Shown: piece after piece, positions 7,262 through 25,326 of the stretch
Position numbering within the stretch: position 1 is the first letter of the stretch
How the letters are laid out: the number at the start of each line of letters is the position of its first letter
From: a virus
Lineage: Duplodnaviria > Heunggongvirae > Uroviricota > Caudoviricetes
Strand: one strand, 5' to 3'
DNA length: 25,326 nt
Virus record (IMG/VR): IMGVR_UViG_2565956724_000002
Made by a program: the position numbers and the translations under genes
Notes under the pieces: model-generated
What the model saw: only the letters and a program-made list of their open reading frames with translations
Database searches by the model: none
Told to the model about the DNA's origin: nothing

Positions 7262-8463
7262 AGAGCAAGTGTTTATTCATTAAGCCATGCCAGAGCTTCA
7301 TCAACCTGCGCTTCGTCTTCGACGCTAAGCACTTCGTCCTGGGGAACATAATCCGCCAGCATAGCGAAACAATATGTATCCCAATGGTCTGGTGAGTGCA
7401 GGTTGAGTTTTTTCTTCATATCCTCCTTACTCATCACCTTCCATTGACCTGCGGAGTTAATCCCTACAGGGATTTTCGACGCTTCCTCAATAGTTTCATT
7501 ACCCTTATCCAGTCTCATACGACCAGATTTTACGGCCTCTGCGGCTTGAACGTTGGCATAAGCACGTTTATCAAAGTACAGGCTCTTATCTTCACGGCTA
7601 TGCATCTTTTTACCCCAGCGTATACGCTGTACGGTAATACCATAATACTCGTACATCAGATCCGCCGTTGCTTTACCCAGGCCATCGCCGTCTATCGCTA
7701 TGGTGATATTGGGGAATCGCTCAGGATTACATTCTGCGAAAATTTTGGCGGCAAGCTGCGTTTCTGTAACGTCTGTGTATTCCAGCATTCGATAGTTGAT
7801 TACACGGCGTTTATTTCGCTGGCCGGACACCATCATGATATTGATAAAGGACTTATCCCGTCCTGTACCACCAGCAACGTCCACACATGCAAGCCAGCCC
7901 CATCCTTTGGCAATCTTGACTTTCCGCCGCGTCGCACGTTCAACCTCATCACGTCCAAGAAGGAAGCCGTCCTGTAATTTAGGGAATAGGCCGCGTACCT
8001 TAATCATGTACATAGGGTTATCACGCCCGCCGTACTCCGCCAGCTTCATTTTGATAAATTCTGACGTTACCAGCGGTGATTCCTCACTGTTAAGCGTGAT
8101 CGCCGTATAAACGCCATCTGGGTTACCAGGACGCTTGGCCAGTTTATGGTGAGTATCGTAGAAATAGCCGCTTGGGCGTGTAGGCTGTGACAGTAATAAG
8201 ATGCGGTTATCCTGTCCGGTAAGAGCACCGGTGATGATACCGAAAGCTCTATCACTGACACCGGAGGCTTCATCGATAATATACAGAAGATGATCTGCGT
8301 GTTCACCGGCGAGAACTTCTTCACTTCCCAGACGAAAGCCCTTCGGTACTACAGTCCATACACCTTTACCAGTAGACTGGCCCCCTGAATCTCCAGACAA
8401 CCAGTATCACTTATTTAAGTGATAGTCTTAATACTAGTTTTTAGACTAGTCATTGGAGAGCAG

Positions 8464-8829
8464 ATGATTGATGTCTTAGGACCGGAGAAACGCAGACGGC
8501 GTACCACACAGGAAAAGATCGCAATTGTTCAGCAGAGTTTTGAACCGGGGATGACGGTCTCCCTCGTTGCCCGGCAACATGGTGTAGCAGCCAGCCAGTT
8601 ATTTCTCTGGCGTAAGCAATACCAGGAAGGAAGTCTTACTGCTGTCGCCGCCGGAGAACAGGTTGTTCCTGCCTCTGAACTTGCTGCCGCCATGAAGCAG
8701 ATTAAAGAACTCCAGCGCCTGCTCGGCAAGAAAACGATGGAAAATGAACTCCTCAAAGAAGCCGTTGAATATGGACGGGCAAAAAAGTGGATAGCGCACG
8801 CGCCCTTATTGCCCGGGGATGGGGAGTAA
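8464..8829 (+). CDS. insC: IS2 OrfA (InsC)
   Basis: [56 protein letters not shown]... Confidence 0.93.
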
Positions 8830-9692
8830 GCTTAGTCAGCCGTTGTCTCCGGGTGTCGCGTGCGCAGTTGCACGTCATTCTCAGACGAACCGATGACTGG
8901 ATGGATGGCCGCCGCAGTCGTCACACTGATGATACGGATGTGCTTCTCCGTATACACCATGTTATCGGAGAGCTGCCCACGTATGGTTATCGTCGGGTAT
9001 GGGCGCTGCTTCGCAGACAGGCAGAACTTGATGGTATGCCTGCGATCAATGCCAAACGTGTTTACCGGATCATGCGCCAGAATGCGCTGTTGCTTGAGCG
9101 AAAACCTGCTGTACCGCCATCGAAACGGGCACATACAGGCAGAGTGGCTGTGAAAGAAAGTAATCAGCGATGGTGCTCTGACGGGTTCGAGTTCCGCTGT
9201 GATAACGGAGAAAAACTGCGAGTCACGTTCGCGCTGGACTGCTGTGACCGTGAGGCACTGCACTGGGCGGTCACTACGGGCGGCTTCAACAGTGAAACAG
9301 TACAGGACGTCATGCTGGGAGCGGTGGAACGCCGCTTCGGCAACGAGCTTCCGGCGTCTCCAGTAGAGTGGCTGACGGATAATGGTTCATGCTACCGGGC
9401 TAATGAAACACGGCAGTTTGCCCGGATGTTGGGGCTTGAACCGAAGAGCACGGCGGTGCGGAGTCCGGAGAGTAACGGCATAGCAGAGAGCTTCGTGAAA
9501 ACGATAAAGCGTGACTACATCAGTGTCATGCCCAAACCAGACGGGTTAACGGCAGCAAAGAACCTTGCAGAGGCGTTCGAGCATTATAACGAATGGCATC
9601 CGCATAGTGCACTGGGTTATCGCTCGCCACGGGAATATCTACGGCAGCAAGCCAGTAATGGGTTAAGTGATAACAGGTGTCTGGAAATATAG
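8787..9692 (+). CDS. insD: IS2 OrfB (InsD) transposase
   Basis: [34 protein letters not shown]... contains a DDE-type integrase core and overlaps insC in the usual IS3-family arrangement. Confidence 0.93.
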
Positions 9693-12845: not shown

Positions 12846-13463
12846 ATGAAAATGACAAGTATTCAACAACGTGCAGAGCTTCATCGTCAAATCTGGCAAA
12901 TTGCTAACGATGTCAGGGGTTCGGTCGATGGATGGGATTTTAAGCAATACGTTCTGGGCGCACTTTTCTACCGTTTTATCAGCGAAAATTTTTCCAGCTA
13001 TATTGAAGCCGGTGATGACAGCATCTGTTATGCGAAACTGGATGACAGCGTAATTACTGATGACATTAAAGACGATGCCATCAAAACTAAAGGCTACTTC
13101 ATCTACCCCAGTCAGCTTTTCTGCAACGTAGCGGCGAAAGCAAATACCAATGACAGACTGAATGCAGATTTAAACAGCATCTTCGTTGCTATCGAAAGTT
13201 CTGCTTACGGTTATCCTTCAGAAGCTGACATCAAAGGTTTGTTTGCTGATTTCGATACCACCAGTAACCGCCTGGGTAACACCGTTAAAGATAAAAATGC
13301 CCGCCTGGCTGCGGTTCTGAAAGGGGTTGAAGGGTTAAAACTTGGTGACTTCAACGAACATCAGATTGACCTGTTCGGTGATGCCTATGAGTTCCTGATT
13401 TCTAACTATGCGGCAAATGCCGGTAAGTCAGGCGGTGAGTTCTTTACACCGCAGCACGTCTCC
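12846..13463 (+). pseudogene. hsdM: Type I restriction-modification methyltransferase HsdM, N-terminal fragment only (type IC / EcoR124-like by recollection), cut off by IS1
   Basis: [44 protein letters not shown]... ending ...[16 protein letters not shown], which reaches the HsdM FxTP motif. The ORF then runs straight into the IS1 terminus at 13464. Confidence 0.7.
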
Positions 13464-13518
13464 GGTGATGTTGCCAACTTACTGATTTAGTGTATGATGG
13501 TGTTTTTGAGGTGCTCCA

Positions 13519-13794
13519 GTGGCTTCTGTTTCTATCAGCTGTCCCTCCTGTTCAGCTACTGACGGGGTGGTGCGTAACGGCAAAAGCACTGCCGGACATC
13601 AGCGCTATCTCTGCTCTCACTGCCGTAAAACATGGCAACTGCAGTTCACTTACACCGCTTCTCAACCCGGTACGCACCAGAAAATCATTGATATGGCCAT
13701 GAATGGCGTTGGATGCCGGGCAACCGCCCGCATTATGGGCGTTGGCCTCAACACGATTTTACGTCACTTAAAAAACTCAGGCCGCAGTCGGTAA
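13519..13794 (+). CDS. insA: IS1 InsA
   Basis: [43 protein letters not shown]... Confidence 0.93.
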
Positions 13795-14216
13795 CCTCGC
13801 GCATACAGCCGGGCAGTGACGTCATCGTCTGCGCGGAAATGGACGAACAGTGGGGCTATGTCGGGGCTAAATCGCGCCAGCGCTGGCTGTTTTACGCGTA
13901 TGACAGGCTCCGGAAGACGGTTGTTGCGCACGTATTCGGTGAACGCACTATGGCGACGCTGGGGCATCTTATGAGCCTGCTGTCACCCTTTGACGTGGTG
14001 ATATGGATGACGGATGGCTGGCCGCTGTATGAATCCCGCCTGAAGGGAAAGCTGCACGTAATCAGCAAGCGATATACGCAGCGAATTGAGCGGCATAACC
14101 TGAATCTGAGGCAGCACCTGGCACGGCTGGGACGGAAGTCGCTGTCGTTCTCAAAATCGGTGGAGCTGCATGACAAAGTCATCGGGCATTATCTGAACAT
14201 AAAACACTATCAATAA
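13713..14216 (+). CDS. insB: IS1 InsB reading frame (expressed as an InsAB' fusion by frameshifting)
   Basis: ...[65 protein letters not shown]... Confidence 0.9.
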
Positions 14217-15424
14217 GTTGGAGTCATTACCCGAATGATGGTTGCCCATACATCAAAGGACTGGTTAACCGGCAGAGCGATGTCAAAGGTGTCGGTCGCA
14301 AGAGTACGCCAGATCATGATGCGAAGACGCAGCATATCCTGTTCATGAGACAGGTATTCCTTCAGGGTGCGGAACTGTAGGGAACCCAGGTCCAGACCAA
14401 ATTCACGCTGTGCTTCATACGCCGCCTGTACCGTGTGCTCAGCCGCGATAACGAACTGGCTTGGGAACAGGGTGTATTTCTTCATTTCGTGGTTGATCAG
14501 CGGGATCAGCTCAGGAGCGGCTTCAATATTGATTTCCGTCTCAATTGCGATCTCAGTGCCTTTATCCGGCGCTTTGGAGAACGACAGGGAAATCTGACCA
14601 ATGTTGTAGTTCAGAGAGCAGGTAACAGTGATTTGCTCACCAGCAGCATTAGTAAACGAGTGAAGTAGGCTGCCGGAACCGTTATCAACAACAGACTTAA
14701 TACGGTTAACGTAGATGTTAGTGCGACCTTTTCGGATTGGTACATTCTGGCCTTCGAAGTCTTCCATCTTGAAGGTTGCGGTTTTGCTGGTGCCATCGGA
14801 GCTTGCCACCAGCACATAGCGGCGGCGTAACTGGCTGTACACACCGACGGATTGCATGTCCAGAACATCACCAGCAGCATAAGAACCAAAAGAGGAACCT
14901 GCCACGTTAAAGACTTCATAGATGTCGGACTGGTCACGCGTAACCGGAATGAAGGTACACGCATCAGCGGTAGCTGCCCCCAACTGAACAGGCAGGATCA
15001 TCGCGAGGAATAAAGGCAGACGCATAACACCGTCAGAAACGCTCATCATCTCTGCTGCGACGGATTCCAGCATCGCTTTATTAGTGGCATCCATGCTATT
15101 GCGGGTGGACTCAATCAGGCAGTTTTCCAGCGTCTGGTGGCAGGAGGCCAGAATTTCCGGACGCGGCATAGATTTATGTGCTGCGGCGTAGTCAGCCAGT
15201 GCACTTGCCCACGCGGTAGCAATTTGAGCGGTGGCATTATCAGAGATACCCGCAAAAATTGGGTCTTTACGTGCAGCTTCAAGGATAGATGCGGCACGCG
15301 CGGCATCATCTTTGATGAATTGGTTATCAGTACCGAACTGTGCTGTACTTGCCCAGCCAAGAACGGCTTTAGAGCGTTTTGCGATATCTGCAATACGATT
15401 CTGGTATTCGCGTAAGTTACTCAA
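14210..15424 (-). pseudogene. Capsid-like structural protein gene (P1 gene 23-like by position next to par), with its 3' end lost at the IS1 junction
   Basis: Probable TTG start at 15424 with RBS AAGGAAG. The last ~6 codons and the stop lie inside the IS1 terminus. The identity is inferred from position and composition only. Confidence 0.35.
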
Positions 15425-15483
15425 GTTACTCTTCCTTAAACACAAGGCACTTGTGTGAATCCCTTTTCGGAAGAGATTTTATT

Positions 15484-15583
15484 GAAAGTCACTTGTTGAC
15501 TTTCTCGCGAAAAGTAATTTTTTGTGCGGGGAAGTGGACGGTGAATGCAGGCGTTAAATCGTGGGAATTTCAGTCTGAAATTC
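15484..15583. promoter_or_regulatory. parS: parS-like centromere region downstream of parB, with two perfect palindromes
   Basis: GAAAGTCA-cttgt-TGACTTTC at 15484-15504 and GAATTTCAG-t-CTGAAATTC at 15565-15583. The ATTTCA-type half sites resemble P1/P7 parS heptamers. Confidence 0.5.
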
Positions 15584-15679
15584 TCCTAAAAAACACATGC
15601 AAATCATAATGTTAGCAATGAAATTGGTGCGGGACATTTTAGGAAGGGGAGGGGCTAACACCACCTCCCACCAGCGGGA

Positions 15680-16645
15680 TTATTCCCCAGCAGACATTTT
15701 CCCAATGATTTTTTTTATTGCTTCGTCAATTTCAGTTTGCACTTCAGACGGGAGTCTGGAGAACTCGTAGGCGACAACCCGTTTTTTCGGATCGGACTTC
15801 TTTCGAGCATATTGGCGACGGTCAGAGAAGTCTCGCAGCTTCTCAACCACCACAGATTTAACCGGCGCGGGCTTCAGGCTTTTGCTTTCCGCTTTGAAGA
15901 TAGCCAGTATCTTCGCTTTATCCTCTTTCGCGCCCTCAGTCTCTGCAATTCGTTCGCGCACCGTATCAACCAGCTCTTCAATAGGCACGCTTTTAGCGTT
16001 GGCATCCTCGGAGATCTGGAGCAGTAACTGGTAATCTGGCAGGGCGAGATCGCTGGCAACAGGGAAGACAGCAATCATCTCATCCGGCACCGCTGCCGCC
16101 TGGAACGCGCGCGTAACTTTAGCCTTTGAAATGTTCTCAGCGCGGGCGATCTCTTCTTTGGTCATGCTCTTACCATACATAACCTCGAAGCGTTTACCCA
16201 GTTCGCGCAGGGTGTGTTCGCGGGCTGTCTGGATATCAATGGCCAGCTGGCGTGCATCCGCCAGGCTGATCTCATCTTTCGTCACCAGAATCTCAAATTT
16301 CGTTTCATTGAAGATACACGCAGCGCGGCGACGTGATCCGTCCAATACCTCAATGCGCTCCCCAACCATACGACCGATAGCCGGGAAGAACTGTTGCAAT
16401 TTAATGGTGCGGGAAATATCGCTTACCGACTCAGGGGTGAGCAGAGACTGATCGCGGCCGTTAACTGCCGGGTCAACGAACGTGCGCGACTCAATCTCAC
16501 CACTCAGCACAACGGTAAGCAAAAATTTAGCCTGGCGGCCAGATTTTAGGGTAAAGGTTTTGGTGCCTTCACTGCCTTCAAGCATGCGAGCAAACTCGGA
16601 GCTATTCTTGCCCAGCACTCGTCCACGGGAAACTATTTTTTTCAT
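15680..16645 (-). CDS. parB: ParB partition protein (P1/P7 family, divergent from P1)
   Basis: Conserved ...RTFVDPAVNGRDQSLLTP...QQFFPAIG...ILDGSRRRAA..., immediately downstream of parA and overlapping it by 4 nt. Confidence 0.85.
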   Translation of the reverse strand: MKKIVSRGRVLGKNSSEFARMLEGSEGTKTFTLKSGRQAKFLLTVVLSGEIESRTFVDPAVNGRDQSLLTPESVSDISRTIKLQQFFPAIGRMVGERIEVLDGSRRRAACIFNETKFEILVTKDEISLADARQLAIDIQTAREHTLRELGKRFEVMYGKSMTKEEIARAENISKAKVTRAFQAAAVPDEMIAVFPVASDLALPDYQLLLQISEDANAKSVPIEELVDTVRERIAETEGAKEDKAKILAIFKAESKSLKPAPVKSVVVEKLRDFSDRRQYARKKSDPKKRVVAYEFSRLPSEVQTEIDEAIKKIIGKMSAGE

Positions 16646-17853
16646 GCCGCCTCACCCCTAACAAACTCAATTCGATCAAACACAGCCTTAGTGAAACGCT
16701 CGGCCTCGGTTCGTGCCTTCTTCAGCGCCTCTGCACTGCCTGGATACGATTGCGGGTTGGCACTGATTACGGTGTCGAAAGACTCGCCGCATCGCTCAAA
16801 TCCATCCAGACGAGGCAGAGAAGAGTCCAGAATGTTGCTGGCGTAAACCTCACGCGCAAGGCTGTGTGATGTCTCGTGATCGCGCTTGCCGGTCATCTTC
16901 GACATAAAACCAATGCTGGCGCTTAAACGCGGTTCTACGCCTTCCTCCTCCAGTTGCTCCAGCATTTCTGGCAGACGGGTGAGATATTTCAGTGTTGAGT
17001 GGAAGTCAACCTGGGCTGGTGGGGTAGGGGTAAGCAGCAAATCGCTGGCCGCCAGACCGTTGAGCAGGAACGGATCCAGGTGTGGACCGGTATCAATAAA
17101 GATAAAGTCATAATCATCCGCAACACGATCAATGATATTGCGTCGAAGGATTTCGTACTGATTTTGTCCGGGAAGATGCTCTTCAACCAGCTCTTTCCAT
17201 TGGCTGGCAACAAAGCCATCGTCGATAGAGGCTGGAATCACGTCTACGCCAGGAACGATGGTCGGACGAATCACCTCTTTGCGTAGCGTCTCCGCGTCCA
17301 AGTCGTTCAGCATCGCCTGCGCGGCGGTTTCCAGGATGGAACCAATACTGTGAGTATGGTCGAGGAACATTGTGCTGGATGCCTGAGGGTCAAGGTCAAT
17401 TACCAGAATGCGCAGATCGTGACGCAGTAAATCCTGATGCACACGCAGAGCGTGCGCCAACGTGACTGTGGAAACCGTTTTGGATACGCCACCCTTCAGG
17501 TTTACGACAAAAATAACGTAAGGCGATTTGTGAATGTCGCGATATTTTGGGATCTTACGGTGGGCATAGATATCAATGACGTTCTGGATGGTCAGCGCGT
17601 ACTGTTCAACGTTACCGACCTGTTTCTTGTTGAACTGGTACCCATCATCTTCCATCTCTTTGATGGCCTGCTCCACAATGCGGCGGCTCAGCTTCGGCAA
17701 CTTTGCCACAGCGTTACGAGTGAACGTCTGATAATACTCGGTCTGATTGAACTCTTTGCGCTGATCTTCAATATCCTGACTCATGGCCTTAAGTAATGCG
17801 CTTGCACGAAGAGCTATGGTGCCGACACCGCCGTAATCGCGTTTCATCATCAT
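16642..17853 (-). CDS. parA: ParA partition ATPase (type Ia, with N-terminal HTH extension)
   Basis: Walker A VVNLKGGVSKTVSTVTLAH, and the C-terminal ...LPRLDGFERCGESFDTVISANP...KAVFDRIEF is almost as in P1 ParA. The N-terminus differs from P1. Confidence 0.9.
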   Translation of the reverse strand: MMMKRDYGGVGTIALRASALLKAMSQDIEDQRKEFNQTEYYQTFTRNAVAKLPKLSRRIVEQAIKEMEDDGYQFNKKQVGNVEQYALTIQNVIDIYAHRKIPKYRDIHKSPYVIFVVNLKGGVSKTVSTVTLAHALRVHQDLLRHDLRILVIDLDPQASSTMFLDHTHSIGSILETAAQAMLNDLDAETLRKEVIRPTIVPGVDVIPASIDDGFVASQWKELVEEHLPGQNQYEILRRNIIDRVADDYDFIFIDTGPHLDPFLLNGLAASDLLLTPTPPAQVDFHSTLKYLTRLPEMLEQLEEEGVEPRLSASIGFMSKMTGKRDHETSHSLAREVYASNILDSSLPRLDGFERCGESFDTVISANPQSYPGSAEALKKARTEAERFTKAVFDRIEFVRGEAA

Positions 17854-17961
17854 CTCCTTATCATTTCGTATGAGTGAATTGTACGTTTGATTCTGCTACG
17901 TGCAACTTATTTTGATTCGTGCGTAAATTATTGCACGTAAAGAAATGGCGATGAGGCTATT

Positions 17962-18249
17962 AGATGTGTGCTGGAGGGATGATGCAGGACCAGAATGTGC
18001 GATAGAGGGAAGTCGCATTGAATTATGTGTTGTGGAGGGATCGCTGGTATCAAATATGTGCGCTGAAGGGAAAGATAGAAGATTAGATGTGCGCTGGAGG
18101 GAAACTTGGATGGTTAGATGTGTGCTGGAGGGAATGTCTGGGCAAACTGCGTGGCGCAACCCTCCAGCGCACACCAAAAACAGGAAAATGGGCAGGCATT
18201 CCCGGCAGCGCACATTTTTCAAATGCAGCTGCCCTCCAGCACACACTTA
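17962..18249. repeat. incA: incA iteron array (about nine 19-bp RepA-binding repeats, both orientations)
   Basis: Repeats of the GATGTGTGCTGGAGGGAAA type, e.g. 17962-17981, 18022-18041, 18085-18104, 18115-18135, and inverted copies CCCTCCAGCGCACAC and GCCCTCCAGCACACAC at 18160-18249. Confidence 0.85.
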
Positions 18250-19107
18250 TTCGGGAAGTTTCAGCTTTGGATTGCGAGAATGGACGATTACAAAACTTTC
18301 CCGGCCTTTCTTCTCAATTGAACAGTCGAGATAGCCAATTGTTTTAAGCTGTTCTATCGCTTTCTTAATGATACGGTTTTGCTCGCCAACAGCTGACTGC
18401 AAAGCCAGGCGCTCACGGATTCGCGCGAACGATAGCGGCAACGGGTTCTGCGGAAGGCTTTCGATGAAAGTGTAAATGGCTTGTGCAGCTTCTTTCTTCG
18501 GAAGGGCACGCAAGGCGTGGTGTTGCAACAGAACGCGATAATCAAGCTGGAACAGCTCCCAGAGCTTCGAATCGGCCTCCAGCTCTATCAGATCAAGGTC
18601 AGCATCAAAACGCCCGACCTTCAGCAGACCAGTCTGATAGCCGCCTTTAGCATCTTTTCCGCGCTTAAAAGCGATACCCTTGTTACGCAAGCGTCCAAGT
18701 GATTCATGAATGGTTAAACGCAGTTTCGCATCCAGACGTTTTGAGGGGAAACCACAGGCTTTAGCGAACTCCTGAAACGATAACTGGATGGTGTTTGAAG
18801 ACAAGCCGTATTTGCTGAACGCGTAGATGACACCGATCCACGTTTTGAAATCAGTATCCATATCGAGTCGAGGACCGGTGATTTTAATATCATCGTAACC
18901 CTCGGCTTTAGCTATCTCCAGCTGGGAAAACGCTTTGGTGGCATCAATCTCTTTACTTTCTCCTTTGCTCTTTGATGGCTTCGGAACGAATACCCCCAAG
19001 CGCATCAACGCTACAGGCTGCACAGTGTTGTTTGAATTAACTGTTAGTTCTTTTGCCTTACTTTCAATGTCTGCGTAAAGAATATCGGAGATAAATGATT
19101 GATTCAT
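18247..19107 (-). CDS. repA: RepA replication initiator of the plasmid R replicon, 286 aa
   Basis: MNQSFISDILYADIESKAKELTVNSNNTVQPVALMRLGVFVPKP... matches P1 RepA. It is flanked by iteron arrays on both sides. Confidence 0.95.
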   Translation of the reverse strand: MNQSFISDILYADIESKAKELTVNSNNTVQPVALMRLGVFVPKPSKSKGESKEIDATKAFSQLEIAKAEGYDDIKITGPRLDMDTDFKTWIGVIYAFSKYGLSSNTIQLSFQEFAKACGFPSKRLDAKLRLTIHESLGRLRNKGIAFKRGKDAKGGYQTGLLKVGRFDADLDLIELEADSKLWELFQLDYRVLLQHHALRALPKKEAAQAIYTFIESLPQNPLPLSFARIRERLALQSAVGEQNRIIKKAIEQLKTIGYLDCSIEKKGRESFVIVHSRNPKLKLPE

Positions 19108-19166
19108 ATTACTTTTTCCGAATTATGTGGATAGTTTTTATAAGTGGTGATAACTACCCAGGCTTT

Positions 19167-19270
19167 CCCGTCAGCACACATCCTATATCCCGCCAGCACA
19201 CATTAGCAACCCGTCAGCACACATTTTTATCCCTCCAGCACACATCGTTTTCCCTCCAGCACACATCGCG
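19167..19270. repeat. incC: incC iterons (five direct repeats at about 21-bp spacing) overlapping the repA promoter
   Basis: CCCGTCAGCACACATC, CCCGCCAGCACACATT, CCCGTCAGCACACATT, CCCTCCAGCACACATC and CCCTCCAGCACACATC. Confidence 0.85.
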
Positions 19271-19299
19271 ATACACTTCTAAGCCAGACGTGGCGCGGC

Positions 19300-19384
19300 C
19301 TGCAACGATCAGGGATCTATATGGATCTAATTGGGATCTGTATGGACCTAATTATTGGATCTACCCAGTGGATAATGTGGATAA
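19300..19384. promoter_or_regulatory. oriR: oriR core: five GATC-containing heptamer repeats plus tandem DnaA boxes
   Basis: GATC at 19307, 19314, 19324, 19335 and 19358. TGTGGATAA (a perfect DnaA box on the other strand) at 19376-19384 and GTGGATAAT at 19368-19376. Confidence 0.85.
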
Positions 19385-19424
19385 GTGAAAAACCGGCCAA
19401 CATAGCCGGTTGGAAGGAAGGGTA

Positions 19425-19817
19425 TTATTCTACGCTTTCGATAAGAAGACCATGTTCATAACATTTAAGCTCATCGCCTTCGTACAGGAATTGGTATCCA
19501 ATACCACCATTTTCATGGACATTAGGGAATAACTCATAACTCACTGAAGAGCAAATCACACCAATGCAGCGATCAACGCCTTCTCGTTCTTCAGTGCTGA
19601 AAAAATCCTCTTCGGTAAGGACATGAGTACATTGCTCATCAGCATAGGTCGGAAATACATGCTCGATGCAATCCGGGTGTTTTAAACCAAGCTGATCGGC
19701 AAGCTCGAAAGCATGACGGTATTGTTCAGATCCTGGCTTGCCAACAGTGATGTGCTCAATTTTGTAGATTGAAGTTGCTTTGTTGATAGTTTGCTTTACT
19801 GTTACTTTATCAGACAT
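19425..19817 (-). CDS. Hypothetical protein (upfA-like by position next to the origin)
   Basis: 130-aa ORF; no motif recognised. Confidence 0.45.
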   Translation of the reverse strand: MSDKVTVKQTINKATSIYKIEHITVGKPGSEQYRHAFELADQLGLKHPDCIEHVFPTYADEQCTHVLTEEDFFSTEEREGVDRCIGVICSSVSYELFPNVHENGGIGYQFLYEGDELKCYEHGLLIESVE

Positions 19818-19828
19818 AAAAATCCCTT

Positions 19829-20161
19829 TTAGTTACCTCTGATAGCGCGGTTGTAATCATTAACGTTGCGATTCTTCCTGTTAATCCCCATCAGCATCGT
19901 TTCTGTATCGAGGATATACGCTGGCAGATCATCAAAATATTCATTGCTAAACTCTGGCATCCTGCACATAAATGCACTTTTGGGGGCAGGGTGGTTAACC
20001 TTTGTCGGCGTCGGCGTTAAATTCGCTGATCGACTGCCGGAGCAACCGCTGAGTGTCAGCAGGAATGCGCTGGCGAACATTACCCGCCGCAACCAGTTGT
20101 TTCTGAACTTCAGCTTTTCGTTCCATTTGCCTGTCAGCATATTTGGCTTGTTCTGATTCAT
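19829..20161 (-). CDS. Putative lipoprotein (mlp-like)
   Basis: Signal peptide with lipobox: ...FASAFLLTLSGCSGS. Confidence 0.55.
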   Translation of the reverse strand: MNQNKPNMLTGKWNEKLKFRNNWLRRVMFASAFLLTLSGCSGSRSANLTPTPTKVNHPAPKSAFMCRMPEFSNEYFDDLPAYILDTETMLMGINRKNRNVNDYNRAIRGN

Positions 20162-20417
20162 TTTTCACTTCCTGGCTGTGAAAATGTTGCTCTGCTTTGT
20201 TCATCGTCTCAATGGTCTGGTTAAGATCCATTATTGACTTATCACGTTCCTTAACAGCCTGATCAAGACTGCCAATTTTCTCCATGGCTTGCTTTAGCTG
20301 ATGACGTTCCCATGCAAACCCAGCACCAACAAGTGCGCAAATCAGAACAAGAACACCAGTAGCAGCAAGTTTCTCCTTCAAAGACAAAGCTGTTTTTAAC
20401 GTAGAAAAGAATGACAT
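19995..20417 (-). CDS. Putative membrane-anchored or periplasmic coiled-coil protein (ppfA-like)
   Basis: N-terminal hydrophobic segment LAATGVLVLICALVGAGFAW followed by a charged, helical region. The start is taken at MSFFSTLK. It overlaps the 5' end of the lipoprotein ORF, so one of the two starts is uncertain. Confidence 0.45.
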   Translation of the reverse strand: MSFFSTLKTALSLKEKLAATGVLVLICALVGAGFAWERHQLKQAMEKIGSLDQAVKERDKSIMDLNQTIETMNKAEQHFHSQEVKNESEQAKYADRQMERKAEVQKQLVAAGNVRQRIPADTQRLLRQSISEFNADADKG

Positions 20418-21183
20418 GTCTTCCTCCTGAAGAAAAATTATCAATGAAGTCCTTTGTTACTGTGCCGCTTTGTTTAATTCATCAATAACAGAATCAGGAA
20501 CCAAAGCGGCAACTGCGCTGGCTGTGCTGACCTTATTTGCTGATGCTTCCGCAAGCGCGGTACCGATAGCATGGTTATAAGCAGTTATGGCTACGTTGGC
20601 GCTTTCATTCGCTCGTTCATACTGCTGTTGTAACGCAGTTGTGGGCGCTGTTGTCTGGTTGAAAACAACCCCAAACTGTTCAGTTGCTACTTTCAGAGAT
20701 TCAATTTGCTCTTCTGTTAGTGCTGGTGGGGGAGTGGCAGTGCCGCCGCCTGAACCAGAGCCTGACGAGCTTCCTGAGCCAGTGTTAAGGGTCTGGTTAA
20801 TCTCCCCCATAGCAGCGACTAAACTTGATGTATTAAGCGCGTTAACAGCGTCCTCAAGCGATTTAGTAATATTCACATCACCAATGGCAATAGAGATCGG
20901 CAGTTCTGAAACTTCTCGCTCATTAGCACGGCAGTAAACATCCCAACCAATATCGAGTTGAAGCAGCATTGACAGATCTGCATAACCAGCCAACAGGTCC
21001 GCGTGCTTAGTTGCCAGTTCTCCAATGTTCGTTAAGCCGGTTGTGGTTGTTCTTATCGTTGAAACATAGCTGGTAATAGTGTCGGGATAGACAATTGTAT
21101 GTAAGCGTCGTCTGAGTACCGTCTGGTCCCGAATCCAGGATCCTGTAACTTAAGCACCCACTTATTTTGCAGGTGGACACCTC

Positions 21184-21567
21184 ATGCGCGCTAAAGAAAG
21201 ACTTCCCCGGAAACACTATTCCCCTGAATTCAAAATGGAACTGGTCAGGCTGGCTCTTGAAGAAGAAGGCAGTATTGCCGCACTGGCCCGGAAACATGAC
21301 GTCAATGATAACCTGCTCTTTAAATGGATAAGGCTCTGGCAGCGTGAAGGGCGGGTCTGTCGGCCCCGAAAAAACTCATCGTCGCTTCCTGCCCTGATAC
21401 CCGTGCAGCTTCAGGCGGGCTCTTCTCTCCCAACCTTCGAACTACCATCCTGCTCTCCTCCCGCTACCTGCCACATAAAATGTCGGGGAGGAGAAATAAC
21501 ACTGACTCATCCCTCTGCTGAACTCATGAGCACTGTCCTGCGCGAACTGATGCGGGGGCCGGTATGA
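21184..21567 (+). CDS. tnpA: IS66-family accessory protein TnpA (orf1)
   Basis: First ORF of the IS66-type triplet; HTH-like N-terminus. Confidence 0.75.
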   Translation: MRAKERLPRKHYSPEFKMELVRLALEEEGSIAALARKHDVNDNLLFKWIRLWQREGRVCRPRKNSSSLPALIPVQLQAGSSLPTFELPSCSPPATCHIKCRGGEITLTHPSAELMSTVLRELMRGPV

Positions 21568-21911
21568 TAAATCTTCCCGCAGGCACAAAAATCTGGCTGG
21601 TTGCCGGTATCACCGATATGCGCAACGGCTTCAATGGCCTCGCCGCAAAGGTGCAGACCGCGCTGAAAGATGACCCGATGTCCGGCCACGTCTTCATCTT
21701 CCGGGGACGCAGCGGCAGTCAGGTAAAACTGCTCTGGTCCACCGGCGATGGTCTGTGCCTGCTGACAAAGCGACTGGAACGTGGTCGCTTCGCCTGGCCC
21801 TCAGCCCGCGATGGCAAAGTGTTCCTGACGCCGGCGCAACTGGCGATGCTGATGGAAGGTATCGACTGGCGACAGCCAAAGCGGTTACTGACATCCCTGA
21901 CCATGTTGTAG
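21564..21911 (+). CDS. tnpB: IS66-family TnpB (orf2)
   Basis: MINLPAGTKIWLVAGITDMRNGFNGLAAKVQTALKDDPMSGHVFIFRGRSGSQVKLLWS... is the typical IS66 Orf2 sequence. Overlaps tnpA by 4 nt. Confidence 0.85.
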   Translation: MINLPAGTKIWLVAGITDMRNGFNGLAAKVQTALKDDPMSGHVFIFRGRSGSQVKLLWSTGDGLCLLTKRLERGRFAWPSARDGKVFLTPAQLAMLMEGIDWRQPKRLLTSLTML

Positions 21912-21960
21912 CGCTCTTTATCCTGGTTGTCGCAGAATAAGCCTGGTAAAATACAGGCTT

Positions 21961-23496
21961 ATGAACGATACCTCTTCTGACGACATCCTTCTGCTGAAAC
22001 AGCGCCTGGCCGAACAGGAAGCGTTGATCCACGCCCTGCAGGAAAAGCTGAGCAACCGGGAACGCGAAATAGACCATCTGCAGGCGCAACTGGATAAGCT
22101 GCGCCGGATGAACTTCGGCAGTCGTTCCGAAAAGGTATCCCGCCGTATCGCGCAAATGGAAGCTGACCTGAACCTGCTGCAGCAGGAAAGCGATACGCTG
22201 ACCGGCCGGGTGGATGACCCGGCAGTGCAGCGCCCGCTGCGTCAGACCCGCACCCGCAAACCGTTCCCTGAGTCACTCCCACGGGATGAGAAGCGGCTGC
22301 TGCCGACTGAGCCGTGTTGCCCGGAGTGCGGTGGTTCGCTGAGTTACCTGGGTGAGGATGCCGCCGAACAGCTGGAGCTGATGCGCAGCGCCTTCCGGGT
22401 TATCCGGACAGTCCGTGAAAAGCATGCCTGCCGTCGGTGCGATCGCATCGTTCAGGCCCCGGCTCCTTCGCGCCCCATCGAACGGGGGATCGCCGGACCG
22501 GGGCTGCTGGCCCGAGTGCTGACCTCAAAGTATGCAGAGCACACACCGCTGTATCGCCAGTCGGAGATCTATGCCCGCCAGGGTGTAGTGTTGAGTCGTT
22601 CTGTACTGTCGGGCTGGGTGGATGCGTGTTGTCGTCTGCTGGCACCGCTGGATGAAGCCCTTCAGCACTATGTCCTGACCGACGGCAAACTCCATGCTGA
22701 CGATACGCCTGTCCCGGTGCTGTTGCCGGGCAATAAGAAGACGAAGACCGGGCGCTTATGGACGTACGTTCGAGACGACCGCAACGCCGGATCAGCGCTG
22801 GCCCCCGCAGTGTGGTTCGCTTACAGCCCGGACAGAAAAGGTATCCACCCTCAGACCCATCTTGCAGGCTTCAGTGGCGTACTGCAGGCTGATGCCTACG
22901 CCGGGTTCAACGAGCTCTACCGCGACGGCCATATAAAGGAAGCCGCGTGCTGGGCCCATGCCCGCCGAAAAATCCACGATGTTCACGTCCGTACCCCGTC
23001 AGTCCTGACGGAGGAGGCGCTGAAACGGATCGGCGAGCTGTATGCCATCGAGTCGGAGATCAGAGGTAAAAGAGCAGAGGAACGGCAGGCAGTCCGGCAC
23101 CAAAAAGTGCTGCCGCTGCTGGCGTCACTGGAGGGGTGGCTGCGGGAGAAACAGAAAACCCTCTCAAGGCACTCAGAACTGGCGAAGGCGTTCGGGTATG
23201 CGCTGAACCAGTGGCCGGCGCTGATCCGCTATGCAGAAGATGGCTGGGTGGAGGTGGATAATAACATTGCCGAAAACGCCCTACGACGGGTCAGTCTGGG
23301 GAGAAAAAACTGGCTGTTCTTCGGCTCGGATCATGGTGGTGAGCGCGGTGCGTCACTGTACAGTCTTATCGGGACGTGCAAATTAAACGGCGTGGATCCG
23401 GAACGCTATCTGCATTATGTACTTGATGTCATCGCCGACTGGCCTGTGAACCGGGTGGGTGCTCTGCTCCCGTGGCGGGTTACTCTGCCTGCCTGA
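21961..23496 (+). CDS. tnpC: IS66-family transposase TnpC (511 aa)
   Basis: N-terminal coiled coil, a CxxC...CxxC zinc motif (CCPECG...CRRCD) and a DDE region, as in IS66 transposases. Confidence 0.85.
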   Translation: MNDTSSDDILLLKQRLAEQEALIHALQEKLSNREREIDHLQAQLDKLRRMNFGSRSEKVSRRIAQMEADLNLLQQESDTLTGRVDDPAVQRPLRQTRTRKPFPESLPRDEKRLLPTEPCCPECGGSLSYLGEDAAEQLELMRSAFRVIRTVREKHACRRCDRIVQAPAPSRPIERGIAGPGLLARVLTSKYAEHTPLYRQSEIYARQGVVLSRSVLSGWVDACCRLLAPLDEALQHYVLTDGKLHADDTPVPVLLPGNKKTKTGRLWTYVRDDRNAGSALAPAVWFAYSPDRKGIHPQTHLAGFSGVLQADAYAGFNELYRDGHIKEAACWAHARRKIHDVHVRTPSVLTEEALKRIGELYAIESEIRGKRAEERQAVRHQKVLPLLASLEGWLREKQKTLSRHSELAKAFGYALNQWPALIRYAEDGWVEVDNNIAENALRRVSLGRKNWLFFGSDHGGERGASLYSLIGTCKLNGVDPERYLHYVLDVIADWPVNRVGALLPWRVTLPA

Positions 23497-23698
23497 CCAG
23501 CTTCACTTCGTCAATACGGTTCTCACTGCACGCTTACAATTGTATCCAGAATTAATCCGGTCAATTCTTCTGCAAGCAGTTTTGCTGTGTTAGCACTGTT
23601 TCGTGCCGATGTTATGGCACCAGGTGTTTTCATCCCACCGGCGGCGGCCAATTTTTTATATGCGGATAACTGGTAGTCTTTTTCCAGCATGATATCTC

Positions 23699-24151: not shown

Positions 24152-24436
24152 ATGCAGATGGAGCTAATAAGCCGCAAAGAGTTCGATAGCCGTGTAACCA
24201 GCGGTGAACTCGACAACTTGCAGGCTATCAAGGTGAAAGAAGGCTTTTGCCTCATTGGGAATCAGAGCGGAACAAATCGCGTTTTTATGCTTCGCCGTAC
24301 GGATTTGAAGCCATTTGTCTGGAAGAACGAAATTGGTCCCAGCTCATACGCTCAAACTAGGGGGTGCCACAACCTGGCCTTTTTCTACAAAAACGAGCTT
24401 TCTGTGGTTGATATTCAAGGGTTACAACATGTTTAA
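24152..24436 (+). CDS. Hypothetical protein upstream of the rdgC homolog (uhr-like)
   Basis: The start is taken at [11 protein letters not shown], with GGAG 7 nt upstream. No function recognised. Confidence 0.4.
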
Positions 24437-24979
24437 GCACTGGAAAAACATTACTATTTATAAACTTTCTCGTGAGGCGGATCTGACCGACTTAGAAGAT
24501 AAAAAGAAAATGATCCTTTTCACGCCATGCGGTAGTCAGGATATGGCCAAGTTCGGTTTTGTATCTCCATTTGGTGATAATTCCGAAGTTATCGCTATGC
24601 ATGGAAATGGTTTTATTCTTGTTGAAGCAAAGCGCGAAACAAAAATTCTTCCCCCGCCGGTTATCCAGCGAGCTATTCAAGAAAAAATTGAAAAACTTGA
24701 GCAAGAACAAGCGCGTAAACTGAAGAAAACAGAGAAGGACTCCCTGAAAGACGAAGTTCTGCATTCTCTTCTGCCACGGGCTTTTTCAAAGTTTTCTGTT
24801 ATCCAGGCGATCTACGACGGTTCAACTAAACGTATCTATATCAATGCCAGCGCGCGGCAGGCAGAGGATATGCTCGCGCTTATGCGTAAATCTCTGGGTT
24901 CTCTTCCTGTTGTTCCCCTAAGTGTTGAAAATCCCATTGAATTAACGCTGACCGACTGGGTACGTGATGGTAGTGCTCC
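24429..24979 (+). pseudogene. RdgC-like recombination-associated protein (hrdC-like), C-terminally truncated by IS911
   Basis: [19 protein letters not shown]...[19 protein letters not shown]...[32 protein letters not shown]... closely resembles the N-terminal ~180 aa of E. coli RdgC. The ORF ends inside the IS911 terminus. Confidence 0.7.
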
Positions 24980-25326
24980 TGAAGTGGTTTACTGAATTTG
25001 GCCACCTGAACAGAGGTGATATGCTCACCTCAGAACAACACAGGTGCCATAATGAAAAAAAGAAATTTCAGCGCAGAGTTTAAACGCGAATCCGCTCAAC
25101 TGGTCGTTGACCAGAATTACACCGTGGCAGATGCAGCCAGCGCTATGGATGTCGGCCTTTCCACAATGACGCGATGGGTGAAACAATTACGTGATGAGCG
25201 GCAGGGAAAAACACCAAAAGCCTCCCCCATTACCCCGGAACAAATTGAAATCCGTGAGCTCAGGAAAAAGCTACAACGTATTGAAATGGAAAATGAAATA
25301 TTAAAAAAGGCTACTGTAGATTCAAT
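24980..25326 (+). mobile_element. IS911 (IS3 family), left end, partial (runs off the window end)
   Basis: Terminus TGAAGTGGTTTACTGAATTTGGCCACCTGAACAGAGGTGATATGCTCACC, followed by an OrfA coding sequence. Confidence 0.85.
25052..25326 (+). CDS. IS911 OrfA (partial)
   Basis: Hand-translated from 25052: [88 protein letters not shown]... Confidence 0.85.

What the first reader, a model, noticed from the sequence alone, without database searches (positions are those of the whole stretch)
15484..19384. Mosaic maintenance module: P1-type RepA and iterons with a divergent ParA N-terminus, ParB and parS
RepA and the incA/incC iterons look P1-identical. The ParA N-terminus, ParB and the parS-like palindromes differ from P1 as I recall them. 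P1-family plasmids are known to vary partition specificity independently of replication, so this may be a distinct par incompatibility type.
Basis: partly seen in the sequence, partly recalled or inferred. Interest (0 to 1): 0.4.

Follow-up and report, generated by a model that had tools for sequence, protein, structure and literature searches.

The report
Phage P7 partition module, P1/P7 replicon
This stretch is the well-known plasmid-maintenance cassette of phage P7 (P7 partition genes next to the replication genes that P1 and P7 share), in a non-coding variant already present in over a hundred sequenced E. coli plasmids, so it is ordinary.

Summary
The module is real, but it is not a new partition type. 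ParA (403 aa) and ParB (321 aa) are 100% identical to phage P7 ParA and ParB, and only 57% and 40% identical to P1. RepA is 100% identical to both P1 and P7.

parS (window 15553-15635) has exactly the P1/P7 box layout. It differs from reference P7 at 24 of 83 positions. None of those differences falls in the 32 positions of boxes B1, A1, A2, A3 and B2 (Fisher p = 6e-7). Box B2 is TTCCCA, as in P7; P1 has TCGCCA.

The "P1-identical iterons" claim holds only in part. incC is nearly identical to P1, but all nine incA iterons differ from P1 by 1-4 nt.

The variant parS and incA alleles are common: 128 and 139 PLSDB plasmids respectively. The same pattern was published for pTZ20_1P (PMC6906374).

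The cassette sits in an IS-riddled, defective P1/P7-like prophage plasmid of the IncY group.

Verdict: already known, low interest.

The parts
15553..15635 (-). parS, the partition site (centromere analogue), P7 type. Boxes in window coordinates: A4 15553-15559 (ATTTAAC), B2 15562-15567 (TTCCCA), A3 15567-15573 (CTGAAAT), A2 15575-15581 (ATTTCAG), IHF-like core 15602-15614 (TAACATTATGATT), A1 15618-15624 (ATTTCAT), B1 15630-15635 (GTCCCG).
   Evidence: Box offsets from the start of A4 (0, 9, 14, 22, 49, 65, 77) are identical to those annotated for P1 parS. 0 of 32 positions in B1, A1, A2, A3 and B2 differ from P7, against 24 of the 51 other parS positions. The A2/A3 palindrome is 9+9 nt and perfect. 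The core is unique in the window, with 0.02 matches expected by chance.
15680..16645 (-). parB, the centromere-binding protein, 321 aa
   Evidence: 321/321 identical to P7 ParB and 39.9% to P1 ParB. Pfam PF08775 ParB, E = 6e-33. Matches the P1 ParB DNA-binding fragment structures 1ZX4 and 2NTZ.
16642..17853 (-). parA, a type Ia Walker-type partition ATPase and autorepressor, 403 aa. Its stop codon overlaps the parB start by 4 nt.
   Evidence: 403/403 identical to P7 ParA (AF503408) and 57.1% to P1. Pfam PF18607 ParA HTH domain (residues 18-107) plus PF13614 AAA_31. The P7 ParA crystal structures 3EZ9 and 3EZF match over 1-403 with 4 substitutions.
17854..17962 (-). par promoter/operator region, P7 type, with inverted repeat TACGTGCAA / TTGCACGTA at 17897-17905 and 17931-17939
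   Evidence: 106/109 identical to P7 and not alignable with P1 (35%). Inverted repeat found. The operator function is inferred from the P7 literature (Hayes et al. 1994, cited in PMC9178275).
17963..18247 (.). incA, nine 19-bp RepA-binding iterons (six in one orientation, three in the other), the copy-number control locus
   Evidence: Same number, spacing and orientation of iterons as in P1 and P7. Each iteron differs from P1 by 1-4 nt. The block is 89.8% identical to P7 and 85.6% to P1. This allele is present at >=95% identity in 139 PLSDB plasmids.
18247..19107 (-). repA, the plasmid replication initiator, 286 aa
   Evidence: 286/286 identical to both P1 and P7 RepA. Pfam Rep3_N PF01051, and Rep3_C just below its cutoff.
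19164..19405 (-). oriR, the plasmid origin. It contains incC (five iterons, 19164-19267), five GATC Dam sites (starting at 19307, 19314, 19324, 19335 and 19358) and tandem DnaA boxes (19368-19384). A further DnaA-like box lies at 19126-19134, next to the repA start.
   Evidence: 97.2% identical to P1 and 97.5% to P7 across the repA-upfA spacer. Features were placed by correspondence with the P1 annotation and by motif searches.

Best explanation
This is the plasmid-maintenance region of a P7-like (P1-family, IncY) prophage plasmid. It combines the P7-specificity type Ia ParABS partition system with the RepA/iteron replicon that P1 and P7 share.

Mechanism, inferred from the P1/P7 literature and applied here through protein identity:
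- RepA binds the five incC iterons in oriR and, with host DnaA and Dam-methylated GATC sites, starts theta replication.
- The nine incA iterons titrate and 'handcuff' RepA to hold the copy number near one.
- ParB, helped by IHF bending, binds the box A heptamers and box B hexamers of parS to form the partition complex.
- ParA-ATP on the nucleoid is stimulated by that complex and moves sister plasmids apart.
- ParA, through its N-terminal HTH domain, represses the operon at the P7-type operator.

Partition specificity is set by box B (TTCCCA / GTCCCG) and the matching ParB C-terminal residues. It is therefore P7-type: incompatible with P7 par and compatible with P1 par. Replicon incompatibility is IncY, shared with both phages.

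The non-coding parS spacers and the incA iterons carry a common natural allele that differs from the laboratory P7 reference. The ParB contact boxes are unchanged, so no change in specificity is expected.
For: Shown here:
- ParA and ParB are 100% identical to P7, and RepA is 100% identical to P1 and P7.
- The whole 5-kb region aligns to P7 at 97.7% with no rearrangement.
- Differences from P7 are confined to the parS region, incA and upfB.
- parS has the same box offsets as P1.
- 0 of 32 positions in boxes B1, A1, A2, A3 and B2 differ from P7, while 24 of the 51 other parS positions do (p = 6e-7). Across 10 P7-type alleles only 3 of 32 box columns vary, against 35 of 51 other columns.
- ParB identical to the window's occurs with this parS allele in pTAir-3, and ParB variants S160N/S212A occur with the reference allele. 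The alleles therefore exchange freely among near-identical ParBs.
- Pfam finds a type Ia ParA (HTH_54 plus AAA_31) and a P1-type ParB.
- P7 ParA structures 3EZ9 and 3EZF match full length.
- NZ_LT883139.1, which is 99.96% identical over window 13464-21100, is typed IncY.

From the literature:
- Only A2-A3-B2 is required to bind ParB. Box B is the discriminator, and B2 alone determines partition incompatibility (PMC10999674).
- The same haplotype ('parAB 99.8% P7; 5' parA 91.6%; 3' parB 81%') is reported for pTZ20_1P, which was inducible and formed lysogens (PMC6906374).
Against:
- Box A4 differs from P7 at 2 of 7 positions, and 4 of the 13 IHF-core positions differ. Binding affinity or dependence on IHF could therefore differ from the reference.
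- incA iterons carry 1-4 substitutions each, with unknown effect on RepA binding.
- The P7 box B assignments and the P7 operator come from my reading of alignments and from papers I could not open.
Confidence: 0.93

Rival explanations
1. One reading: a new partition-incompatibility species within the P1par family, distinct from both P1 and P7.
For: The 255-bp parS region is only 81% identical to reference P7. parS proper is 71% identical when compared without gaps.
Against: ParB is residue-for-residue P7 ParB, so the protein discriminator cannot have changed. Boxes B1 and B2 are identical to P7, and every substitution avoids B1, A1, A2, A3 and B2. Box B2 is reported to be the only B box that determines partition incompatibility (PMC10999674).
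Confidence: 0.02
2. Same P7 specificity, but a quantitatively different centromere and copy-control allele. The altered IHF-flanking spacer and box A4 would change ParB loading or IHF dependence. The altered incA iterons would change RepA titration, giving weaker cross-incompatibility with reference P7 or P1.
For: 24 of 83 parS positions and 29 of 285 incA positions differ from P7, in sharply bounded patches between near-identical coding sequences. The two variant alleles tend to occur in the same plasmids, for example pTAir-3, CP137165, CP058720 and CP114794. Venturini et al. raise 'potential modification of replicon function' (PMC6906374).
Against: The IHF core TAAnnnnATGAT is retained. A4 and the left arm are outside the A2-A3-B2 minimum reported as required to bind ParB. 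RepA is unchanged, and the natural P1 iterons already vary at the same positions. Nothing here measures affinity.
Confidence: 0.12
3. A decaying, non-functional remnant carried passively on an IS-riddled plasmid that is maintained by another replicon.
For: The neighbouring capsid gene 23 is cut by IS1. At least two further IS elements lie in the window.
Against: All three ORFs are intact and identical to functional reference proteins. Every cis site is present. The near-identical plasmid LT883139.1 is typed IncY only, so this would be its sole recognised replicon.
Confidence: 0.03

Closest known systems
Phage P7 parA-parB-parS with repA/incA/incC/oriR (AF503408 / NC_050152; par sequence X17529)
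   Same: Gene order, overlaps and spacing are the same. ParA, ParB and RepA proteins are identical. The par operator region is 97% identical. All six ParB boxes occupy the same positions, and five of them are identical.
   Different: 24 of 83 parS positions differ, all in the spacers, the IHF region and box A4. 29 of 285 incA positions differ. There is a 10-bp deletion in the A-tract between parS and the gene 23 promoter.
Phage P1 maintenance region (NC_005856)
   Same: RepA is identical. oriR/incC is 97% identical. The iteron layout and the 83-bp parS architecture are the same.
   Different: ParA is 57% and ParB 40% identical. Box B is TCGCCA in P1 against TTCCCA here. The par operator is unrelated, and the incA-parA spacer is 164 bp longer in P1.
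pTZ20_1P (NZ_MN510447.1) and about 130 other natural IncY P1-like plasmids, e.g. NZ_LT883139.1 and pTAir-3
   Same: They show the same haplotype: P7 parAB, a variant parS flank and a variant incA. Published as 'parAB 99.8% P7; 5' parA 91.6%; 3' parB 81%' (PMC6906374). The parS region is 96-100% identical and incA is 99-100% identical.
   Different: Most have 10 extra bp in the A-tract beside parS. Their backbones differ through IS-mediated rearrangements.
Other P1par-family species (pMT1 of Yersinia pestis, pWR100 of Shigella flexneri); recalled from Dabrazhynetskaya et al. 2005 and Sergueev et al. 2005, not opened here
   Same: They share the type Ia ParABS organisation with a box A / box B parS, in which box B and a ParB C-terminal residue set the species.
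   Different: They are separate specificities with clearly diverged ParB. The window's ParB is simply P7 ParB. The next-nearest plasmid ParB group found is about 68% identical.

Membership tests
P7 partition species (P1par family) | ParB, including its C-terminal discriminator region, matches P7 ParB | tested here: met
   321/321 identical to AAQ07528
P7 partition species (P1par family) | ParA matches P7 ParA | tested here: met
   403/403 identical to AAQ07529. 399/403 identical to the PDB 3EZ9 sequence.
P7 partition species (P1par family) | parS immediately downstream of parB with the layout B1-A1-IHF-A2-A3-B2-A4 and P7-type box B | tested here: met
   Offsets are identical to P1/P7. B2 is TTCCCA and B1 is GTCCCG, as in P7. 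A1, A2 and A3 are identical to P7, and A4 matches at 5 of 7 positions.
P7 partition species (P1par family) | P7-type par operator upstream of parA | tested here: met
   106/109 identical to P7. A 9-bp perfect inverted repeat is present.
P7 partition species (P1par family) | Partition incompatibility with P7 and compatibility with P1 in vivo | not testable with these tools
   Needs plasmid stability and incompatibility assays.
Type Ia ParABS | Large ParA with an N-terminal HTH domain and a deviant Walker A motif; ParB of the P1 ParB family | tested here: met
   PF18607 HTH_54 (E = 4e-37), PF13614 and PF08775. The KGGVSKT motif is visible in the translation.
P1/P7 (IncY) iteron replicon | P1-type RepA; five incC iterons in oriR with five GATC sites and DnaA boxes; nine incA iterons downstream of repA | tested here: met
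   RepA is identical to P1 and P7. All 14 iterons are at the P1 spacing. GATC sites and DnaA boxes found. The near-identical plasmid is typed IncY.
P1 partition species | Box B is TCGCCA and ParB is P1-like | tested here: not met
   Box B is TTCCCA / GTCCCG. ParB is 39.9% identical to P1.

The most novel reading that the evidence does not exclude
The widespread non-reference haplotype (variant parS spacers and box A4, plus variant incA iterons, with unchanged ParA, ParB and RepA) could be a functionally distinct sub-type. It might, for example, have altered IHF dependence of partition-complex assembly, or weakened incA-mediated cross-incompatibility. Either could let two P7-par IncY phage-plasmids coexist more easily than expected.
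Probability: 0.06. Interest if true: 0.3.

Novelty: already known. Interest (0 to 1): 0.07.

Why it matters
It matters little. P1 and P7 sharing a replicon while differing in partition specificity is a textbook case that defined box B/ParB discriminator recognition.

The one modest point is that the laboratory P7 parS and incA sequences are not the commonest natural alleles. About 128 of 235 PLSDB plasmids with P7-type par carry the window's parS allele.

The pattern of substitutions, none in boxes B1, A1, A2, A3 or B2, gives a natural-variation confirmation of which parS positions are constrained.

For annotation, such plasmids should be labelled P7-par / IncY rather than treated as a new type.

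Tried and rejected
- I tried to open the primary Austin-lab papers that define box B specificity: PMC1196149, PMC2632008 and PMC1170934. None is held. I used the summary in PMC10999674 and marked the rest as recalled.
- One literature search and one in-paper search failed because a term was shorter than 3 characters.
- I considered that the 2.3% DNA difference from P7 might hide protein changes in ParB. It does not. Coding DNA is 99.7-99.9% identical and the proteins are identical. The differences sit in non-coding patches.
- I considered that the variant parS might co-vary with ParB substitutions, which would signal a new specificity. Rejected: identical ParB occurs with the window allele (pTAir-3), and slightly different ParBs occur with both alleles.
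- I considered that the palindrome at 15484-15504 was part of parS. Rejected: it is identical in P1 and P7 and coincides with the gene 23 late-promoter region.
- I did not use the large protein-database, structure-prediction or metagenome scans. Exact identity to reference proteins made them unnecessary.
Full report
**What is there**

The finding interval (15484-19384) holds three intact genes on the minus strand:
- parB, 15680-16645, 321 aa
- parA, 16642-17853, 403 aa, overlapping the parB start by 4 nt
- repA, 18247-19107, 286 aa

A megablast of window 15000-20000 against phage records gave a single colinear match to phage P7 (AF503408 / NC_050152) over 100% of the query at 97.7% identity. 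P1 records matched only about half of it. I fetched the annotated P7 and P1 regions as L001 and L002.

**Proteins**

| Protein | vs P7 | vs P1 |
|---|---|---|
| ParB | 321/321 identical | 39.9% |
| ParA | 403/403 identical | 57.1% |
| RepA | 286/286 identical | 286/286 identical |

These figures are from global alignment. The first 40 ParA residues are the most divergent from P1, at 22%.

Pfam finds the ParA HTH domain PF18607 (residues 18-107) plus an AAA_31 ATPase domain in ParA. It finds PF08775 in ParB, and Rep3_N (with Rep3_C just below its cutoff) in RepA. The P7 ParA crystal structures 3EZ9 and 3EZF match full length with four substitutions. The P1 ParB DNA-binding fragment structures 1ZX4 and 2NTZ match the C-terminal 180 residues of ParB.

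So the partition proteins are simply those of P7. P1 and P7 are reported to be autoregulated from dissimilar operators (Hayes et al. 1994, cited in PMC9178275). I could not read that paper itself.

**Where the 2.3% DNA difference from P7 lies**

A base-by-base map of differences from P7 over 14232-21100 shows 191 differences, concentrated in three patches:
- 15500-15700, 54 differences
- 17900-18300, 34 differences
- 20600-21100, 55 differences

Segment identities:

| Segment | vs P7 | vs P1 |
|---|---|---|
| parB CDS | 99.9% | 56.6% |
| parA CDS | 99.7% | 63.7% |
| par promoter/operator | 97.2% | 35.2% (not meaningfully alignable) |
| repA CDS | 98.8% | 99.0% |
| oriR/incC spacer | 97.5% | 97.2% |
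| parB-distal spacer including parS | 73% | 48.5% |
| incA | 89.8% | 85.6% |

P1 and P7 are 94.7% identical to each other in incA. The module is therefore P7 in its coding parts, with two sharply bounded non-coding patches that differ from both laboratory references.

**parS**

Read in gene orientation, the site lies at window 15553-15635. The sequence is:

GTCCCG CACCA ATTTCAT TGC TAACATTATGATT ...(20 nt)... ATTTCAG A CTGAAAT-TCCCA CG ATTTAAC

That is B1, A1, IHF-like core, A2, A3, B2 and A4. A3 and B2 share one T, so B2 reads TTCCCA.

The offsets of the seven elements from the start of A4 (0, 9, 14, 22, 49, 65, 77) equal those annotated for P1 parS. The A2/A3 palindrome is perfect at 9+9 nt. 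The 20-nt A2-A3-B2 core occurs once in the window, and the second listed match is the same palindrome read on the other strand. Only 0.02 matches are expected by chance.

Against reference P7, 24 of 83 positions differ:
- 0 of 32 in B1, A1, A2, A3 and B2
- 2 of 7 in A4
- 4 of 13 in the IHF core, which keeps TAAnnnnATGAT
- 18 of 31 elsewhere

Fisher's exact test for boxes against the rest gives p = 6e-7.

Box B2 is TTCCCA as in P7, against TCGCCA in P1. B1 is GTCCCG as in P7. According to PMC10999674, which summarises Dabrazhynetskaya et al. 2005 and 2009, only A2-A3-B2 is needed to bind ParB. Box B is the discriminator, and B2 alone sets partition incompatibility. With ParB identical to P7 and the discriminator boxes identical to P7, P7 specificity is the only reasonable reading.

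**How common the allele is**

A 167-bp query restricted to the variable part of the parS region found 235 PLSDB plasmids:
- 128 at >=95% identity, carrying the window's allele
- about 106 at 77-87% identity, carrying the P7-reference-like allele

The reciprocal search with the P7 allele also found 235 full-length matches, 91 of them at >=95%. tblastn with ParB found about 231 plasmids with ParB at >=95% identity. The next group was at about 68%.

I aligned ten P7-type parS alleles. Only 3 of 32 box columns vary, against 35 of 51 other columns (p = 7e-8).

ParB variation does not track the parS allele:
- pTAir-3 has the window's ParB with the window's allele.
- pCP53-92k has four substitutions with the same allele.
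- pLAO54 and p2017.15.03CC have S160N and S212A with the reference allele.

**Replicon**

All 14 iterons are present at P1 spacing and orientation.
- incC iterons 11-14 are identical to P1. Iteron 10 differs by 1 nt and equals the P7 version.
- The nine incA iterons differ from P1 by 2, 1, 1, 2, 2, 1, 4, 3 and 2 nt.
- Iterons 1 and 2 are identical to P7. This marks the point where the P1/P7 divergence begins.
- The five GATC sites and the tandem DnaA boxes (19368-19384) are conserved.

The window's incA allele occurs at >=95% identity in 139 PLSDB plasmids and at 80-90% in 231. Several plasmids carry both variant alleles: pTAir-3, CP137165, CP058720 and CP114794. This suggests one common haplotype.

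**Already published**

Venturini et al. 2019 (PMC6906374) describe pTZ20_1P (130,134 bp). This appears to be NZ_MN510447.1, hit H32, which has the same record length. [quoted passage not shown] These are the same numbers I obtain: 91.9% for the repA-parA spacer and 81.2% for the parS region. That plasmid was inducible and formed lysogens, so the haplotype is functional.

**Context**

Window 13464-21100 is 99.96% identical to NZ_LT883139.1, an E. coli plasmid typed IncY.

An IS1 element (13464-14231) truncates the major-capsid gene 23 on one side. It abuts a truncated hsdM on the other. An IS66-family element lies at about 21100-23536, and an IS3-family transposase at about 8.4-9.7 kb. The remainder of the window is P1-like: cre-type integrase, antirepressor and DUF968.

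The host element is thus a degraded, probably non-inducible, P1/P7-like prophage plasmid that retains an intact maintenance cassette.

**Verdict**

RepA, the divergence of ParA, ParB and parS from P1, and the mosaic structure all hold. The claim that the incA iterons are P1-identical does not hold, and the left-edge palindrome is not parS.

But this is the classical P7 type, in a non-coding haplotype that is common and already described.

Novelty: already known. Interest: low.

The only residual open point is whether the variant spacers, box A4 and incA iterons change binding quantitatively. Sequence alone cannot decide that.

Noticed in passing
window 13464-14231, with flanks 12846-13490 and 14210-15445: A 768-bp IS1 separates a truncated type I methylase gene (HsdM_N plus the first 41 profile positions of N6_Mtase) from a 5' remnant of P1/P7 gene 23, the major capsid gene (the 411-aa ORF listed here, against 568 aa in P1). 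This suggests an IS1-mediated deletion of much of the phage morphogenesis region, which would leave the prophage defective. The same junction is present in NZ_LT883139.1.
   Followed up: partly
window about 21100-23536: An IS66-family element (511-aa transposase with DDE_Tnp_IS66, preceded by two small ORFs) interrupts the colinearity with P7/P1 inside the upfB homologue. It is absent at this position in NZ_LT883139.1.
   Followed up: partly
window 20600-21100: This is a third patch of dense divergence from P7, with 55 differences in 500 bp. It lies in the upfB homologue, which contains a Gly/Ser-rich run (GSGSSSGSGSGGG). It is a mosaic segment unrelated to the maintenance module.
   Followed up: no
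window 15484-15504: A perfect 8-bp inverted repeat, GAAAGTCA-N5-TGACTTTC, is identical in P1 and P7. By position it overlaps the -22 element of late promoter LP23 of gene 23, as annotated in P1. With gene 23 truncated, the promoter now drives a dead gene.
   Followed up: partly
window about 15530 (A-tract between parS and LP23): There is a 10-bp deletion (AAAAAATTTA) relative to P7 and to the other aligned plasmids with the same parS allele. The 255-bp parS-region query matches NZ_LT883139.1 at 100%, so it shares the deletion. It lies outside the ParB boxes.
   Followed up: partly
ParA, window 16642-17853: The P7 ParA sequence in PDB 3EZ9/3EZF differs at four residues from both the AF503408 P7 genome record and the window. 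Window residue first, they are E61D, D69E, D183N and K219R. The laboratory P7 sequences are therefore not all identical.
   Followed up: no
window 8419-9692 and 24315-24995: An IS3-family transposase (rve / HTH_21 domains) is inserted in the P1-like backbone. An RdgC-domain ORF (226 aa, covering profile positions 3-185 of 298) lies near the right end and may be truncated.
   Followed up: no
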